DNA from: Candidatus Eiseniibacteriota bacterium | Lineage (GTDB): Bacteria > Eisenbacteria > RBG-16-71-46 > SZUA-252 | Direction: 5' to 3' | DNA: 64,000 nucleotides | Assembly (NCBI GenBank): GCA_036274595.1 | Contig: DASUFL010000021.1 | Coordinates: 8,521 to 72,520 of the forward strand | Part shown: positions 14,050 through 19,460 of the stretch, piece by piece | Layout of the letters: every line of letters begins with the position of its first letter | How positions within the stretch are numbered: position 1 is the first letter of the stretch | Notes under the pieces: model-generated | The model's input: only the letters and a program-made list of their open reading frames with translations | Databases searched by the model: none | What the model was told of the DNA's origin: nothing | Made by a program: the position numbers and the translations under genes

Positions 14050-15588
14050 TCACTCCCACTCGATCGTGGCGGGAGGCTTGCTGCTGACGTCGTACACGAC
14101 GCGATTGACCCCTCGAACTTCGTTGACGATGCGCGACGAGACGCGCGCGAGGAACTCGTGCGGCAGCCGGGCCCAGTCGGCCGTCATCCCATCGCTCGAG
14201 GTGACCGCGCGGAGCGCGACCACCTGATCGTACGTCCGGCCGTCCCCCATCACGCCGACCGTCCGCACGGGGAGAAGGACCGCGAAGGCCTGCCAGACCT
14301 TGTCGTACAGGTCCGCGCGGCGCAGCTCCGTGATGTAGATATCGTCCGCATGGCCGAGCGTCTCCACCGCTTCCTCGGTGACCGGCCCCAAAATTCGCAC
14401 CGCCAGGCCGGGCCCCGGGAAGGGGTGCCGGCCGAGAACGGAGGGGGGGAGACCCAGAAGAGATCCGAGGCTCCGGACCTCGTCCTTGAATAACTCCCGA
14501 AGGGGCTCCACCAGTTCCATCTTCATGTGGTCGGGCAGCCCGCCCACGTTGTGATGGGACTTGATCTTGGCCGAGGGCCCCCGGATGGACGTCGACTCGA
14601 TGACGTCCGGGTAGAGGGTGCCCTGGGCCAGGAGCTCCGCTCCCCCCAATCGCTTGGCCTCGTCCTCGAACACCTCGATGAAGACCCGGCCGATCGTCTT
14701 CCGCTTGGCCTCGGGGTCCTCGATGCCCTTGAGGGCGTCCAGGAACCGCCGCCGGGCATCCACGGTCACGAGGTCGTCCCCGATCACGTGCCCCATCAGC
14801 TCCTGCACCTGGGCCGCCTCGTTCCTCCGGAGGAGCCCGTGGTCCACGAAGACCGCCCGGACCTGCCCCGGGATGGCCCGGTGGAGGAGGGCCGCGACGA
14901 CCGACGAGTCCACGCCGCCGGAGAGCGCGCAGAGCACCCGTCGCTTCCCCACCTGGCGACGGATCCTGTCCATCTGCTCGTCCAGGACCTGCCCCATCGT
15001 CCAGTCGCCGGAGAAGCCGCAGACGTCGAAGAGGAAGTTCCGGTAGATGCGCATCCCCTGCTCCGTGTGCGCGACCTCGGGGTGGAACTGGACGACGTAG
15101 CGCTGGTGGTCGAGGTCTTCGGCCGCGGCGGCCAGCCCGCCCGTCGAGCGCGCCAGGAGCGTGAAGCCCGGCGGCAGCTCTTCGACGATGTCGCCATGGC
15201 TCGCCCAGATCCGGCTCTCGGCCGGCAAGCCGGCGAGGAGCGTCCCCGTGCGCTCCACCTGGAGCACGGCCTGCCCGTACTCGCGGTGCTTGCTCGGATG
15301 GATGCGTCCGCCGAGGTCGCGCGCGAGGAGCTGCATGCCGTAGCAGACGCCGAGAATGGGGACTCCCTGCGCGAGCACCGCGGGGGCGAGCTGCGGCGCT
15401 CCCGGCTCGTCCACGCTCGAGGGACCGCCCGAGAGGATGATCCCTTTCGGGTTGAGCGACGCCAGCGTCATGGCGTCGATATCGGGTGCGCGGATCTCGG
15501 CGAAGACGCCCAGCTCGCGCGCGCGCCGCGCGATGAGCTGGGTGAACTGGGAACCGAAGTCGAGGATGAGCAGCCGTTCGTGGCTCAC
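14050..15588 (-). CDS. guaA: GMP synthase (glutamine-hydrolysing)
   Basis: ILDFGSQFTQ, GVCYGMQ, QFHPEV, ALSGGVDSSV, IKSHHNVGG, HPFPGPGL and KPPATIEWE. GTG start at 15588 (GTGA overlap). Confidence 0.99.
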   Translation of the reverse strand: MSHERLLILDFGSQFTQLIARRARELGVFAEIRAPDIDAMTLASLNPKGIILSGGPSSVDEPGAPQLAPAVLAQGVPILGVCYGMQLLARDLGGRIHPSKHREYGQAVLQVERTGTLLAGLPAESRIWASHGDIVEELPPGFTLLARSTGGLAAAAEDLDHQRYVVQFHPEVAHTEQGMRIYRNFLFDVCGFSGDWTMGQVLDEQMDRIRRQVGKRRVLCALSGGVDSSVVAALLHRAIPGQVRAVFVDHGLLRRNEAAQVQELMGHVIGDDLVTVDARRRFLDALKGIEDPEAKRKTIGRVFIEVFEDEAKRLGGAELLAQGTLYPDVIESTSIRGPSAKIKSHHNVGGLPDHMKMELVEPLRELFKDEVRSLGSLLGLPPSVLGRHPFPGPGLAVRILGPVTEEAVETLGHADDIYITELRRADLYDKVWQAFAVLLPVRTVGVMGDGRTYDQVVALRAVTSSDGMTADWARLPHEFLARVSSRIVNEVRGVNRVVYDVSSKPPATIEWE

Positions 15589-16331
15589 GGACCCCCCGGC
15601 AGTTGAAAATCGAAGGGCAGCTCGTACCATGCCGCGACGGGAACTCCGTTCTTCCTCGCCGGTGTGAAGGTCCACACCTTGGCCGCTTCGATGGCCGGCT
15701 CGTCGAGGCCCATCACGCTCTGAATGACGAAGACATCCCGGACGTGCCCCTTCTCGTCGATGAGGACGTCGAGCACGACCCTCCCCGTGATTCGCGCGGT
15801 TCGAGCGAATTCGGGATACTCAGGCGGCGGAGCCGAGAGCGGCACCGGCCGCTGGTCGTAGACCACGTCACCATCGGGCAGGTGGGGAAGGCTGTCGCTG
15901 CGGGAGATGGCACGAACGTACAGGTCGACCCCGCCGTCCTCGAGCGCATAACCCATGTCCCCGTCTCGAAGGAGCAAAGTATCGTGGCCGGAGAACTGGA
16001 ACACGCGCTGCTTCCTGGCGGTCCCGGGATCGAACTCGATCCATGGATCGAGAGAGTCTCGACGAGCGGTTTGATAAACCTTGAACCGGCCCATCCGCGT
16101 CCTGGATCCCCCGTTCCTGATCTCGGTCAATCGGTAGGTCGAGTCGGGATTCAGACTGAGTTGACCGTCACGTCCTGGACCCCGCGTGAACGCATCATTG
16201 GACTGCCACCTCCACGTTCCGAAGAGGCTGTCCGCATACACCTCTTCGATGGGCGCGGGGTGATCGATGGTGGCGCAGCCCGCGCCGGCCAAGATCCCGA
16301 GTCCCAGGACGGGTACGTAGTCGCGCAGCAT
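15585..16331 (-). CDS. Putative lipoprotein: lipocalin/NlpE-like N-domain fused to a TonB C-terminal domain
   Basis: Hydrophobic leader ending ILAGAGC (imperfect lipobox); GTWRWQ...LSLNPDSTYRL; C-terminal YPEFAR..ITGRVVLDVLIDEKG...WTFTPA...PV TonB_C. Alternative ATG at 16352. Confidence 0.75.
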   Translation of the reverse strand: MLRDYVPVLGLGILAGAGCATIDHPAPIEEVYADSLFGTWRWQSNDAFTRGPGRDGQLSLNPDSTYRLTEIRNGGSRTRMGRFKVYQTARRDSLDPWIEFDPGTARKQRVFQFSGHDTLLLRDGDMGYALEDGGVDLYVRAISRSDSLPHLPDGDVVYDQRPVPLSAPPPEYPEFARTARITGRVVLDVLIDEKGHVRDVFVIQSVMGLDEPAIEAAKVWTFTPARKNGVPVAAWYELPFDFQLPGGP

Positions 16332-16336
16332 CTGCC

Positions 16337-17944
16337 TCAGTGAAGAAAACATCTCTCGCCTGTCGTCATCAGCACGATCCCCGCCCTGTCCGCGGCGGCG
16401 ACGGATTCTCCGTCCCGCACCGAGCCTCCCGGATGCGCGATCGCCGCGATCCCCGCCTCGGCCGCGATCTCGACCGAGTCGGGGAACGGGAAGAACGCGT
16501 CCGAGCAGAGCACCGCCCCGCGCACGTCGTGTCCCGCCCGCTCCGCTTTCAACAAGGCGAGCCGCACCGCGTCCACACGCGAGGACTGCCCCGCCCCGAT
16601 CCCGAGCGTTCGTCCGCCATGCGCGATCACGATGCCGTTCGAGATCGCGTGGCGCACCACGCGCCAGGCGAAGTGGAGATCCTCGAGCTGCGCCGGACTG
16701 GGCGGCGTCGTCGACACGGCCCTCCATCCCTCGAGGCGCGGGGGCCCGGGCGCCGTCTCCGCGAGAAGGCCGCCCAGGAGGGTGCGCGCCGACAGACCCG
16801 ACGACGCCCCGTCCCGCATCCAGGGGAGCGCCAGGATGATTAGATTCTTCCTGAGGGCCGCGAGCTTCTCCCCGTTTGCTTCCACCGACGGCGCGAGCAC
16901 GATCTCGTAGAAGAACGAGCCGACCGCATCGAGCGCGGCGTCGTCGAGCGGGCGGTTCAAACCCAGGATCCCGCCGAACGCCGAGAGCTCGTCCCCCTGC
17001 CGCGCCCGCCCGATCGCCTCCGCCGCGGTGCCCGCCACGGCGGCGCCGGAGGGGTTGCGGTGCTTGATGACGACGGCCGCCGACTCGCTGAACTCGCGCA
17101 GCAAGCCGAGCGCCGCCTCCACGTCGAGGAGGTTGTTGAAGGAGAGCTTCTTCCCGCGCATCTGGCCGAGCCTGAGCCGGCCCCCGCCCTCGGGGAGGTA
17201 CCAGGCCCCCTCCTGCCCCGGATTCTCGCCGTAGCGGAGCCGCTGCTCGAGCCGGAGCTGGAGGTCGATGGTCTCGGGGAGCGCCGCCGCGCCCTCGAGC
17301 GCGCCGGGCACACCGGCGGCCGGCGAGCGGGTCTCGCCCGGCGTGTCGCGCTCGGTGCCCGCGAGGTAGCGCGAGATCGCGGCGTCGTAGGATGCCGTGC
17401 GCTCGAACGCGCGCCGCGCGAACTTCCGAGCGATCGACGGCGGGACGCCTCCCTGGCGATCCATCGCCTCGAGCACGACGCCGTATTGATCGGGATCCAC
17501 CACGACGACCACATGGCTGTGGTTCTTCGCCGCCGCGCGGATGAGCGCGGGACCGCCGATGTCGATCTGCTCGATCGCCTCGTCATCGGTCGTGGCCTCG
17601 GACGCGACCGTCTTCTCGAAGGGATAGAGGTTCACGACCACGAGATCGATCGAAACGATGCCGTGCTTGTGGCGGTCTTCCTCGTCCCGGCCAAGGCCGC
17701 GGCGGTAGAGGATCCCGCCGTGGATCGAGGGGTGGAGCGTCTTCACGCGCCCGTCGAAGAGCTCGGGGTACCCGGTCACCTCGGAGACGTCGCGCACGGT
17801 GATGCCCGCGCCCCGAAGCGCGAGCGCGGTGCCCCCCGTCGAGAGGATCTTCACGCCGTGGCGCGAGAGTCCGCGCGCGAAATCGACCAGACCGGTCTTG
17901 TCGGACGCGGAGAGCAGCGCCCGCCCGATCACGATGGCGCTCAC
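16337..17944 (-). CDS. purH: Bifunctional IMP cyclohydrolase / AICAR transformylase
   Basis: ALLSASDKTG, GRVKTLHP, IDIGGP, LRYGENP, VIKHRNPSG, GAGQSSRVD and SDAFFPF. GTG start at 17944 (GTGA overlap). Confidence 0.97.
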   Translation of the reverse strand: MSAIVIGRALLSASDKTGLVDFARGLSRHGVKILSTGGTALALRGAGITVRDVSEVTGYPELFDGRVKTLHPSIHGGILYRRGLGRDEEDRHKHGIVSIDLVVVNLYPFEKTVASEATTDDEAIEQIDIGGPALIRAAAKNHSHVVVVVDPDQYGVVLEAMDRQGGVPPSIARKFARRAFERTASYDAAISRYLAGTERDTPGETRSPAAGVPGALEGAAALPETIDLQLRLEQRLRYGENPGQEGAWYLPEGGGRLRLGQMRGKKLSFNNLLDVEAALGLLREFSESAAVVIKHRNPSGAAVAGTAAEAIGRARQGDELSAFGGILGLNRPLDDAALDAVGSFFYEIVLAPSVEANGEKLAALRKNLIILALPWMRDGASSGLSARTLLGGLLAETAPGPPRLEGWRAVSTTPPSPAQLEDLHFAWRVVRHAISNGIVIAHGGRTLGIGAGQSSRVDAVRLALLKAERAGHDVRGAVLCSDAFFPFPDSVEIAAEAGIAAIAHPGGSVRDGESVAAADRAGIVLMTTGERCFLH

Positions 17945-19425
17945 CGCGCGGCGCGCGCCCCCGTGATCATCGCGAAGGCTTCTTCGTAGCGCCGAGCCGT
18001 CTTCTCGATCACCTCGTCCGGCAGGCGAGGCGGCGGCGGATTGCGATCCCACTTGATGGAATCGAGATAGTCGCGGATCACCTGCTTGTCGAAGCTGTCC
18101 TGCGCCACGCCTTCGGTGTAGCGGTCGATGGGCCAGTAGCGCGACGAATCGGGCGAGAGCGCCTCGTCGATCCAGACGATCATCCCGTCCTTCTCGCCGA
18201 ACTCGAACTTCGTGTCGGCGAGGATGAGTCCGATCGACTCCGCGTGCGCTGCGGCTGCCTTGTAGATCGCGATGCTCGTCGCGCGGAGCCTCTCCGCTGC
18301 GTCGCCCCCCACGATGGACGCCATGCGGTCGAAGTCGATGTTCTCGTCGTGCCCCTCCTGCTCCTTCGTCGCGGGAGTGAAGATCGGTTCGGGAAGCTTC
18401 GACGAGAGCTTGAGTCCCGGCGGGAGCTTCACCCCGCAGACCATGCCGCTCGCCTGGTATTCCTTCCACCCCGATCCCGCGAGATAGCCGCGCACGACAC
18501 ACTCGACGTCGTAGCGCTTGGCCTTCTTCACGAGCATGGACCGGCCGTCGAGCAGGGAGCGATGGGAGGCGAACGGCTCGGGAAAGCGCGCCACGTCCGT
18601 CGTGAGGTAGTGGCTCGGCACGATCGCCTCGAGCCGCTCGAACCAGAAGCGGGAGATCTGGGTGAGAACGCGCCCCTTCCCCGGGATCCCCTCGTTCAGG
18701 ATCACGTCGTACGCCGACACGCGATCGGTCGCGACCAGGAGGAGCTGGGAGCCGAGATCGTAGAGATCGCGGACCTTTCCCCTGTAGTCGGGCGCGCGGC
18801 CCGGGATCACCACGTCGCGCAGCGCGCGATCGGCCGTCTTCATCGATTCCTCCTGAGTGAACGTTCGTATCGCGTCGACGTAGATCTCGTGTTCCAGCGG
18901 CAGCAGACGCTCCGCCAGGGAGTCCGCGGTCTCGCCCTTTCGAATCGGGAGCTCCGCCTGGAGTACCACGGGGCCCGAGTCCATGCCCGCATCCACGCGG
19001 TGCACGGTCGCTCCGGTCACCGCCACGCCCGCCTCGATCGCCTGCCGCTGCGCCTCCAGCCCTGGAAACCGCGGGAGGAGCGATGGGTGCACGTTGAGGA
19101 TCGGGACGCCCGCCTGGTCGATCGTCTCCGCGCGCAGAAGGCGCATGAAACCGCAGAGGGCGATCAGCCCGGGACGGTCCCGGCGGATGATGCCTTGGAG
19201 CTCTTCTTCGGCTTCGGGAGCGAGCCGCGATCCGGGGCGCCACGGCGTGAGGACGGACGTGGGGATCGATCGCTCTCGGGCGTACTCGAGCGCGGGAGCG
19301 TCCTGCCGGTCGGAGACGACCCGCACGACCGCTGCCCGTAGCCGTCCGTCGCGCGTGGCCTCGATCAGATTCGCGACGTGGCTCCCCCGCCCGGAGGCGA
19401 GGAGCAGCAGCCGAAGGGGCTCCAT
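17941..19425 (-). CDS. purN-purC: In-frame fusion of GAR transformylase PurN (19425-18844) and SAICAR synthase PurC (18843-17941)
   Basis: PurN motifs: LASGRGS, NVHPSLLP, TGATVHRV and DSGPVV. PurC motifs: GKVRDLY, DRVSAYD, ECVVRGYLAGSG, FTPATK, LILADTKFEFG, DSSRYW and FDKQ. No stop codon between the two parts. Confidence 0.95.
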   Translation of the reverse strand: MEPLRLLLLASGRGSHVANLIEATRDGRLRAAVVRVVSDRQDAPALEYARERSIPTSVLTPWRPGSRLAPEAEEELQGIIRRDRPGLIALCGFMRLLRAETIDQAGVPILNVHPSLLPRFPGLEAQRQAIEAGVAVTGATVHRVDAGMDSGPVVLQAELPIRKGETADSLAERLLPLEHEIYVDAIRTFTQEESMKTADRALRDVVIPGRAPDYRGKVRDLYDLGSQLLLVATDRVSAYDVILNEGIPGKGRVLTQISRFWFERLEAIVPSHYLTTDVARFPEPFASHRSLLDGRSMLVKKAKRYDVECVVRGYLAGSGWKEYQASGMVCGVKLPPGLKLSSKLPEPIFTPATKEQEGHDENIDFDRMASIVGGDAAERLRATSIAIYKAAAAHAESIGLILADTKFEFGEKDGMIVWIDEALSPDSSRYWPIDRYTEGVAQDSFDKQVIRDYLDSIKWDRNPPPPRLPDEVIEKTARRYEEAFAMITGARAAR

Positions 19426-19431
19426 CGACAA

Positions 19432-19460
19432 TCGATACCACACTCGGGCGTCCGTCTCAA
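19432..19460 (-). promoter_or_regulatory. sigma70-type promoter, probably giving a leaderless purN transcript
   Basis: TTGAGA, N17 (with TG at the extended -10 position), TATCGA, then 6 nt to ATG 19425. The -10 lacks the final T. Confidence 0.5.

What the first reader, a model, noticed from the sequence alone, without database searches (positions are those of the whole stretch)
17941..19425. PurN and PurC form one reading frame, yet PurC keeps a perfect internal Shine-Dalgarno
Seen: complete PurN runs into complete PurC through ...TTC ACT CAG GAG GAA TCG ATG AAG with no stop, and AGGAGG sits 5 nt before ATG 18843. Known: the familiar purine fusions are PurD-PurM-PurN, PurE-PurC and PurN-PurH, and PurN and PurC catalyse non-consecutive steps. 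Inference: either an unusual bifunctional enzyme co-produced with free PurC by internal initiation, or a recent stop-codon loss or sequencing error.
Basis: partly seen in the sequence, partly recalled or inferred. Interest (0 to 1): 0.65.

Follow-up and report, generated by a model that had tools for sequence, protein, structure and literature searches.

The report
Recurrent PurN-PurC fusion keeping purC's start
Two purine-synthesis genes that normally overlap by four bases have been welded into one reading frame here, and independently in several related soil bacteria. The second gene's ribosome-binding site and start codon are preserved every time, so the cell probably still makes free PurC alongside the fused enzyme.

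Summary
Window 17941..19425 (- strand) is one 494-aa ORF made of a complete PurN (aa 1-194) and a complete 300-aa PurC, with AGGAGG 5 nt before the internal ATG.

It is not an error. Contigs from four independent soil metagenome studies show the same junction, and 15 of 38 species genomes of this Candidatus Eisenbacteria family carry a fused gene.

Unfused relatives have the ordinary ATGA/GTGA stop-start overlap. Each fusion is a small indel in the last ~20 nt of purN that shifts the frame. Nine fused lineages have different junction sequences. The gene tree needs 8 fused/split changes, and a single fused clade is rejected (AU p 0.005).

None of 165 other genomes of the class is fused. The identical 4-nt purC|purH overlap in the same operon is never fused.

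In every fused lineage a GGAG-type SD and an ATG (once GTG) persist, although the surrounding linker peptide is hypervariable. SD strength equals that of unfused genes (-8.5 vs -8.55 kcal/mol; internal ATGs -2.6).

I infer selection for internal initiation, giving PurN-PurC plus free PurC. No protein-level data exist.

The PurN-PurC architecture appears undescribed. Interest is moderate.

The parts
17941..19425 (-). purN-purC fused ORF: 494 codons plus the TGA stop at 17943..17941
   Evidence: open frame; PF00551 + PF01259; TIGR00639 and NF010568 both above cut-off.
18844..19425 (-). PurN (GAR transformylase) part, aa 1-194. The NVHPSLLP motif and the D-x-G-P aspartate are kept.
   Evidence: N111, H113 and D149 are invariant in 16 fused proteins. 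pLDDT 80-95.
18849..18854 (-). Shine-Dalgarno AGGAGG of purC, now inside the ORF (codons cAG GAG Gaa)
   Evidence: Duplex energy -10.0 kcal/mol; 1.5% of internal ATGs are as strong. A GGAG-type SD is kept in all 22 fused loci.
18841..18843 (-). ATG of purC (Met195), the ancestral start codon and the presumed internal initiation site
   Evidence: It aligns with the ATG/GTG start of unfused purC. It is M in 33 of 34 fused proteins and V (GTG) in one.
17944..18843 (-). PurC (SAICAR synthetase, long form) part, aa 195-494 (300 aa)
   Evidence: Closest solved structures are 3r9r/6yvq and yeast 1a48.
18778..18852 (-). Flexible junction, aa 192-216 (end of the PurN helix, QEES, and the first ~20 residues of PurC)
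   Evidence: AlphaFold2: pLDDT below 50 for residues 192-205 and 208-216; pTM 0.55.
16337..17944 (-). purH. Its GTG start (17944..17942) overlaps the TGA of purN-purC (GTGA).
   Evidence: PF02142 + PF01808. 33 of 36 family loci have the same 4-nt overlap and none is fused.
19432..19460 (-). Conserved promoter-like element: TTGAGA (19460..19455), 17 nt, TGG-TATCGA (19440..19432). It ends 6 nt before the purN ATG, so purN is probably leaderless.
   Evidence: Conserved at the same spacing in 34 family loci. No SD before purN. Not found by the strict consensus scan.

Best explanation
This is a genuine in-frame fusion of purN (GAR transformylase, purine step 3) and purC (SAICAR synthetase, step 7), in a comEC | purN-purC | purH arrangement of a Candidatus Eisenbacteria soil bacterium.

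Shown: the ancestral state, still present in about 60% of the family, is two genes whose stop and start overlap as ATGA/GTGA (a 1-nt spacer in some of genus g2). purC's SD is encoded in the last codons of purN.

Shown: a small indel in the last ~20 nt of purN puts purN into the frame of the purC ATG. The indel is net +1 nt mod 3 here and -1 nt in the g2-like lineages. The TGA then falls out of frame and the ribosome reads on into PurC.

Shown: this happened repeatedly within one family. There are nine fused lineages with different junction sequences, and at least 7-8 state changes on the tree. Both catalytic domains stay intact, joined by a disordered linker of about 25 residues.

Inferred: purC's SD and its ATG/GTG are kept by selection in every fused lineage, so ribosomes still initiate there. 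The gene then yields two products: the 494-aa PurN-PurC, made from the SD-less and probably leaderless purN start, and the 300-aa free PurC, made from the strong internal SD.

Inferred: because purC keeps its own start, the dosage of essential PurC barely depends on whether the purN stop is in frame. PurN is backed up by PurT. This would explain why this junction drifts between split and fused so easily.

The confidence of 0.65 is for the whole statement including the inferred internal initiation. The shown parts (real fusion, origin by frame change, recurrence) I hold at above 0.9.
For: The ORF and both domains are complete.

The junction is identical in contigs from four independent studies.

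Distribution: 15 of 38 family genomes are fused (g1 5/10, g3 7/7, g4 3/9, g2 0/12). None of 165 other genomes of the class is fused.

Junction alignment shows the ATGA overlap in split genes and frame-shifting indels in fused ones.

The tree, built with the junction columns removed, needs 8 changes in all bootstrap trees, 7 of them forced by starred branches. The AU test rejects a single fused clade (delta lnL 374, p 0.0046).

SD energy: fused mean -8.5 (n 22, weakest -6.4); split mean -8.55 (n 18); internal ATGs of the same genes mean -2.6, with 14% at or below -6.

In the g3 clade, 4-fold sites are only 56% identical pairwise, and only 11 of 108 invariant 4-fold columns keep one codon. Yet the junction glycine is GGA in 10 of 10 sequences, although GGA is 21% of Gly codons. 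GGAG persists while the peptide reads QEGD, QKGG, QNGG, QRGD, QEGA or QEGG.

The SD sits in three different codon phases in g1, g3 and g4.

The start residue is M in 18 of 19 g3-type proteins. The single exception is Val encoded by GTG, behind AAGGAGG. The neighbouring positions show 8 and 5 different residues.

The A that completed the old TGA has been lost in three g3 sequences (ATGG/GTGG), so the stop-related base decays while the start signals do not.

The 16S rRNA carries the canonical anti-SD.

The purN start has no SD and lies 6 nt behind a conserved extended -10-like element.

The genome has purT and only one purC.

The equivalent purC|purH overlap is never fused.

AlphaFold2 gives two folded domains and a floppy linker.
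Against: There is no protein, ribosome-profiling or 5'-end evidence. The metatranscriptome contigs found cover only short conserved pieces.

In the window's own clade, the 50-nt stretch around the internal start is no less structured than the rest of the gene (-15.6 against a mean of -15.2 kcal/mol). The SD sits near the tip of a hairpin, P(unpaired) about 0.5.

The g1 fused clade is young (90-97% protein identity), so for this clade alone retention could be inertia. The selection argument rests mainly on the older g3 clade and on the number of independent lineages.

The tree is a gene tree of the same two proteins, not a species tree. Gains and reversals cannot be told apart formally.
Confidence: 0.65

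Rival explanations
1. The fusion is real, but the SD and ATG are relics. Only the 54-kDa bifunctional protein is made. The GGAG and the Met persist through lack of time, or because they happen to encode an acceptable linker.
For: The window's clade is young. The local mRNA is not unusually open. An SD-like sequence inside an ORF does not by itself cause initiation.
Against: All nine fused lineages keep an SD as strong as that of split genes. In g3, synonymous sites are near saturation, yet the rare GGA codon and the start codon are invariant while flanking residues change freely. The only change at Met is to GTG. The SD lies in three different codon phases, so no common peptide is being conserved.
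Confidence: 0.25
2. Sequencing or assembly error, or a pseudogene: the true genome has two overlapping genes and one base is wrong.
For: One extra base is enough to create such a frame. MAG assemblies do contain indel errors. An earlier case in this scan (e1-1241745) was judged to be such an artefact.
Against: The junction is the same, with no indel, in contigs from four runs of four studies. It is shared by 5 species genomes of the genus and 4 metagenome protein clusters. The fused state is consistent within clades. Both domains are under purifying selection.
Confidence: 0.02
3. The fusion is adaptive in itself: tethering or channelling in a purinosome-like assembly, or fixed 1:1 stoichiometry. 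The internal SD then serves only as a translational pause that helps the PurN domain fold before PurC emerges.
For: The fusion is fixed in all 7 sampled species of genus g3. Fusion recurs at this junction but never at purC|purH. Two-hybrid work places PurC at the hub of bacterial purine-enzyme networks (bioRxiv 10.1101/2025.07.15.664858).
Against: PurN and PurC catalyse steps 3 and 7, which share no intermediate. The AlphaFold2 model shows no confident domain contact (pTM 0.55, linker pLDDT below 50). About 60% of the family does well without the fusion. A pause model does not explain why the start codon is invariant or why it is replaced only by GTG.
Confidence: 0.12
4. Recoding: the fused and split forms are equivalent because split species also make the fusion by a +1 ribosomal frameshift at the overlap, or fused species terminate at the junction.
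For: Cases are known in which some species encode a fusion and others reach it by programmed frameshifting, for example magnesium chelatase (PMC3711429).
Against: There is no slippery heptamer or conserved stimulator at the junction. The junction sequences are hypervariable apart from the SD and the start.
Confidence: 0.03

Closest known systems
Multifunctional purine enzymes made by gene fusion: animal trifunctional GART (PurD-PurM-PurN), PAICS (PurE-PurC), ATIC/PurH; bacterial PurN-PurH and PurM-PurN
   Same: Neighbouring purine-pathway genes are joined into one polypeptide with intact, independently folding catalytic domains. PurN and PurC each take part in other known fusions, which turned up here.
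   Different: The PurN+PurC combination is not among the fusions listed in the review read (PMC10912719). It did not turn up in the literature searches. Outside this family it was absent from the top hits of the protein searches. It joins the non-consecutive steps 3 and 7, is confined to one family, and arose repeatedly.
Bacterial genes with in-frame internal translation starts that give two products (my own knowledge: infB IF2-alpha/beta, clpB 93/79 kDa, cheA long/short)
   Same: An SD plus ATG/GTG inside an ORF, conserved beyond what the protein sequence requires, is predicted to yield a full-length and an N-terminally shorter protein.
   Different: In those genes the short form is a truncated version of one protein. 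Here it would be a complete, ancestral stand-alone enzyme, and the start is the inherited cistron start rather than a newly evolved one. Here the second product has not been demonstrated.
ATGA/GTGA 4-nt stop-start overlaps of co-directional genes (translational coupling)
   Same: This is the state of the unfused relatives and of purC|purH in this window: the SD lies in the upstream gene's last codons and the stop overlaps the start.
   Different: In the window the overlap has been converted into read-through by a frame change, so termination-reinitiation coupling no longer applies at purN|purC.
Earlier scan case e1-2111929 (sigma factor fused to an ATPase-beta-like domain with a conserved internal SD and start)
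   Same: A fusion junction that retains an RBS and a start codon under apparent selection, and the same inference of a second, separately made product.
   Different: The proteins are unrelated and that fusion is ancient and single. Here the fusion is recurrent and young, and split sister lineages are available as controls. That note is an unchecked AI report.

Membership tests
PurN, phosphoribosylglycinamide formyltransferase (TIGR00639 / PF00551) | Full-length match above the curated cut-off | tested here: met
   166.7 bits against 150.1; aa 5-194 match model positions 2-189 of 192. PDB matches to bacterial and E. coli GAR transformylases.
PurN, phosphoribosylglycinamide formyltransferase (TIGR00639 / PF00551) | Catalytic Asn-His in N-x-H-P-S-L-L-P, and Asp in D-x-G-P (E. 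coli N106/H108/D144; roles from my own knowledge) | tested here: met
   N111, H113 and D149 are invariant in 16 fused proteins. The residue-to-residue mapping onto E. coli was made by motif, not by a printed alignment.
PurC, SAICAR synthetase, long form (NF010568 / PF01259) | Full-length match above the curated cut-off | tested here: met
   401.4 bits against 251; aa 214-491 match positions 17-295 of 297. PDB 3r9r, 6yvq, 1a48.
Bifunctional fusion protein | One uninterrupted ORF, reproducible in independent data and in relatives | tested here: met
Bifunctional fusion protein | A single polypeptide carrying both activities is observed | not testable with these tools
   No proteomic or biochemical data exist; the organism is uncultured.
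Dual-product gene with internal translation initiation | An in-frame start codon preceded by an SD complementary to the organism's own 16S 3' end | tested here: met
   AGGAGG-N5-ATG. The 16S rRNA ends in CACCTCCTTTCT. Duplex energy -10.0 kcal/mol, top 1.5% of internal ATGs.
Dual-product gene with internal translation initiation | SD and start codon conserved beyond the needs of the protein sequence | tested here: met
Dual-product gene with internal translation initiation | The shorter product is detected and depends on the internal start | not testable with these tools
   The RNA contigs are uninformative. No Ribo-seq or proteome is available.
Programmed ribosomal frameshift site | Conserved slippery sequence and stimulator at the frame junction | tested here: not met
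   The junctions vary freely apart from the SD and the start, and no heptamer is shared.

The most novel reading that the evidence does not exclude
The purN|purC junction of this family is an evolutionary toggle. Because purC keeps an autonomous RBS, single indels flip the locus between two genes and one gene plus an internal start, without loss of function. Lineages that fix the fused form use it to anchor PurN to the PurC hub of a bacterial purinosome-like assembly, for example as PurN-PurC/PurC mixed dimers whose ratio is set by the two start sites. The fusion would then be a natural Rosetta-stone indication of a PurN-PurC contact.
Probability: 0.15. Interest if true: 0.7.

Novelty: new variant of a known kind. 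Interest (0 to 1): 0.5.

Why it matters
Gene fusion is the main route to multidomain enzymes, but the birth of a fusion is rarely caught with split and fused sister lineages side by side. Three points make this case useful.

First, the mechanism can be read directly from the sequences: a one-base phase change at a 4-nt overlap.

Second, it has happened many times in one family. The purC|purH overlap in the same operon serves as a negative control, because it never fuses.

Third, the downstream cistron's ribosome-binding site survives every time. This suggests that young fusions start life as two-product genes, which lowers the cost of fusing. That hypothesis can be tested with a simple expression construct.

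The finding also adds an undescribed architecture (PurN-PurC) to the purine pathway. Annotators currently label these genes as PurC or as partial PurN.

Tried and rejected
1. Sequencing error was rejected (and clade consistency).

2. A single origin of the fusion was rejected by the AU test and by the different junction sequences.

3. Search for PurN-PurC outside the family. The representative library's top 150 hits held none. The long PurC hits scanned in Pfam were PurE-PurC, PurC-PurE, PurC-PurS, SNO-PurC, sigma70-PurC, MerR-PurC, AI-2E-PurC and two PurC tandem or extended forms. A search with the PurN part alone found PF00551+PF01259 only in about 33 clusters at 60% identity or more. Both searches can miss distant fusions or fusions with short-form PurC.

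4. The metagenome-contig scan returned mostly unrelated PurC loci. Apparent junction-spanning matches L048 and L056 had no PurN.

5. mRNA openness at the internal start gave a weak, mixed signal: mean z +0.9 in fused and +1.3 in split loci, about 0 in the window's clade. I do not use it as support.

6. Metatranscriptome runs gave only 20-30-nt conserved fragments from other organisms, plus one contig across comEC|purN. They say nothing about 5' ends.

7. The strict sigma-70 scan found no promoter. The promoter-like element rests on conservation only.

8. Genome-wide SD use was estimated with crude first-ATG gene calls. Enrichment was modest (19% against 4.5% at or below -8 kcal/mol) and is a lower bound.

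9. No paper describing a PurN-PurC fusion turned up.
Full report
1. THE OBSERVATION

On the - strand, ATG 19425 opens a frame of 494 codons that ends at TGA 17943..17941. Residues 5-194 are a full-length PurN (TIGR00639, 166.7 bits against a cut-off of 150.1; PF00551). Residues 214-491 are a long-form PurC (NF010568, 401.4 against 251; PF01259).

The junction is ...TTC ACT CAG GAG GAA TCG ATG AAG... The ATG is at 18843..18841 and AGGAGG is at 18854..18849. From Met195 the product would be 300 aa, exactly the size of the stand-alone PurC of relatives.

purH follows, with its GTG overlapping the stop as GTGA. comEC precedes.

2. NOT AN ARTEFACT

Logan contigs of four soil metagenome runs from four different studies cover 18700-19000 with no indel.

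The same 494/493-aa protein occurs in four other species genomes of the genus, at 90-97% identity. It also occurs in independent ENA/JGI metagenome clusters. By the names on related records, the organism is a Candidatus Eisenbacteria (Eiseniibacteriota) MAG: 3.44 Mb, 68% GC, 94.6% complete.

3. WHAT THE RELATIVES SHOW

Among the 41 species genomes of the family, 38 have the genes and 15 of those are fused. By genus the counts are g1 5/10, g3 7/7, g4 3/9 and g2 0/12.

In 206 genomes (83 genera) of the class, no genome outside this family is fused. Two of them have purN and purC in the same frame, separated only by TGA stops.

purN followed by purC is the conserved gene order throughout.

The unfused family members have the commonplace arrangement. 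The purN TGA overlaps the purC ATG/GTG as ATGA/GTGA, or lies 1 nt before it in part of g2. A GGAG-type SD is encoded in the last purN codons.

Fused genes differ by small indels in the last ~20 nt of purN:
- The window's clade has 21 nt where its split congener G007 has 20. Its sister G008 has 18.
- g3 has 18 nt against 17.
- The g4 lineages carry insertions of 13-16 nt that look like imperfect local duplications.
- The g2-like metagenome lineages have lost 1 nt.

The stop codon was therefore not mutated. It was put out of frame.

4. RECURRENCE

DNA for further junction types was fetched by exact-protein look-ups. In all, nine fused lineages with distinct junction peptides were seen:
- TFTQEES / TIQEES
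- QESRADL
- QEGDx and its variants
- QRQLFQGDS
- QQRNVSIESKGDL
- QRTSE[SF]RRDR
- QRGGQD
- QRGGDD
- QGGGC

An ML tree of PurN+PurC was built from 48 rows with the junction columns removed. It needs 8 changes of state in every bootstrap tree, and 7 of them are forced by strongly supported branches. Forcing all fused genes into one clade costs 374 log-likelihood units (AU p 0.0046).

Gains and reversals cannot be separated formally. However, the split genes nested among fused ones keep the ancestral-looking junction (for example CAACAGGAGAAACC-ATGA in G018). Independent gains are therefore the simpler reading.

There is an internal control. The purC|purH junction in the same operon is a 4-nt overlap in 33 of 36 loci and is never fused. 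The purN|purC junction is therefore unusually tolerant of fusion, or is favoured for it.

5. ARE THE START SIGNALS OF purC STILL UNDER SELECTION?

The genome's 16S rRNA ends in GGATCACCTCCTTTCT.

SD pairing energy, measured against CACCUCCU, compares as follows:
- Fused loci: mean -8.5 kcal/mol (n 22, weakest -6.4).
- Split loci: mean -8.55 kcal/mol (n 18).
- Other in-frame ATGs of the same genes: mean -2.6, with 14% at or below -6.

In this genome, 1.5% of internal ATGs reach the window's -10.0.

The motif occupies a different codon phase in each of three clades: cAG GAG Gaa (g1), AGG AGa (g4) and gaA GGA Gac (g3). It is therefore not a conserved peptide.

g3 is the oldest fused clade. Its 4-fold sites are 56% identical on average, and only 11 of 108 invariant 4-fold columns keep one codon in all ten sequences. 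Yet the junction glycine is the minority codon GGA (21% of Gly codons) in 10 of 10. The core GGAG is kept while the peptide changes to QKGG, QNGG, QRGD, QEGA or QEGG.

Among 19 g3-type protein clusters, the residue before the start takes 8 forms and the residue after it takes 5. The start is Met 18 times and Val once. That Val is GTG, preceded by the stronger AAGGAGG.

By contrast, the A that used to complete the TGA of ATGA has been replaced in three g3 sequences (ATGG/GTGG). The feature needed only for the old stop decays, while the features needed for a start do not.

I take this as good comparative evidence that the internal RBS is used.

6. HOW IT MOST LIKELY WORKS

purN has no SD (mean -3.4 to -4.4 kcal/mol). 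Its ATG/GTG lies 6-7 nt behind a conserved TTGAGc-N17-TGnTAt element, present in all 34 loci examined. This is the geometry of a leaderless mRNA. The reading rests on conservation only. The strict scan found no promoter, and one RNA contig runs across the site.

Ribosomes starting at the purN codon now make the 494-aa PurN-PurC. Ribosomes recruited by the strong internal SD make the 300-aa PurC.

Both active sites are intact. NVHPSLLP and D149 in PurN, and the GKVRD and DTKFEFG blocks in PurC, are invariant in 16 fused proteins.

AlphaFold2 folds both domains (pLDDT 80-95) and leaves residues 192-216 disordered, with no confident mutual orientation (pTM 0.55).

The genome has one purC but also a purT (582 bits). 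PurC supply is therefore essential, while PurN is backed up. A purC that keeps its own start makes the state of the purN stop nearly irrelevant to PurC dosage. This would explain the frequent switching.

Shown: the fusion, its mechanism of origin, its recurrence, and the conservation of the SD and start. Inferred: internal initiation, the two products, and near-neutrality.

7. CAVEATS

- No protein-level evidence exists.
- In the window's own clade, the mRNA around the internal start is not less structured than average, and the SD lies near the tip of a hairpin.
- That clade is young, so the selection argument leans on g3 and on the number of lineages.
- The tree is a gene tree.

8. COMPARISON WITH WHAT IS KNOWN

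Known purine fusions are trifunctional GART, PAICS and ATIC/PurH (review PMC10912719). PurN-PurH, PurM-PurN and PurE-PurC in both orders also turned up in my searches.

PurN+PurC appeared only in this family, in the two large protein searches, and in no paper found. Those searches are not exhaustive.

The mechanism works like two known things combined. One is ordinary fusion of overlapping cistrons; fusion/fission ambiguity at overlaps is noted in PMC3711429. The other, from my own knowledge, is genes with an internal start such as infB, clpB and cheA.

It agrees with what I see.

9. VERDICT

This is a real, undescribed domain architecture. Its origin is unusually well resolved and recurrent, and a second product is credible but unproven. 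It is a new variant of a known kind. Interest is moderate (0.5).

Noticed in passing
window 19432..19460 (- strand): A conserved promoter-like element: TTGAGA, 17 nt, TGG-TATCGA. The -35 hexamer overlaps the comEC stop codon, and the -10 hexamer ends 6 nt before the purN ATG. The same layout occurs in 34 family loci, and purN has no SD, so purN looks leaderless. The strict consensus scan does not call it, and one metatranscriptome contig (X27, 19258-19490) crosses it.
   Followed up: partly
window 17941..17944 and 36 family loci: purC|purH is a 4-nt GTGA/ATGA/TTGA overlap in 33 of 36 loci and is never fused. This contrasts with at least 8 state changes at purN|purC in the same loci.
   Followed up: yes
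G000 contig C87:111983-113128 (outside the window): A purT (formate-dependent GAR transformylase; TIGR01142, 582 bits against a cut-off of 502) is present, so PurN activity is redundant in this organism.
   Followed up: partly
G038:C3:37098-38591 (L026) and G104:C48:9387-10919: In two other families of the class, purN and purC lie in the same reading frame, separated only by two TGA stops (G038) or one (G104). These are one or two point mutations away from a fusion, by a different route.
   Followed up: no
proteins P0135, P0144, P0147, P0177, P0233, P0129, P0150; P0282, P0299, P0308, P0345: Other unusual architectures turned up in the searches: sigma70-PurC, MerR-PurC, AI-2E transporter-PurC, SNO/PdxT-like-PurC, PurC-PurS, PurE-PurC in both orders, and PurN with a metallo-beta-lactamase domain. 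Some may be gene-calling fusions of neighbours. comEC, which has a Lactamase_B domain, sits next to purN here.
   Followed up: no
window 18811..18873 (- strand): In the window's clade the junction lies in a hairpin (GCGAUACG...CGAUCGCGC) with the SD near its tip. Split congeners have an almost unstructured junction (-3.8 against -15.6 kcal/mol for 50 nt).
   Followed up: partly
L006, L127, L129 junctions (genus g4 and relatives): The three fused lineages of this clade carry different 13-25-nt insertions at the same spot, between the IQ codons and the SD. They look like imperfect tandem duplications of the ATCCA/ATTCAA motif, which may be a local mutational hot spot.
   Followed up: no
window 15585..16727 (- strand): The ORF downstream of purH ends in a TonB_C domain (PF03544). 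Its listed 380-aa frame overlaps the end of purH, so its true start is probably further in.
   Followed up: no
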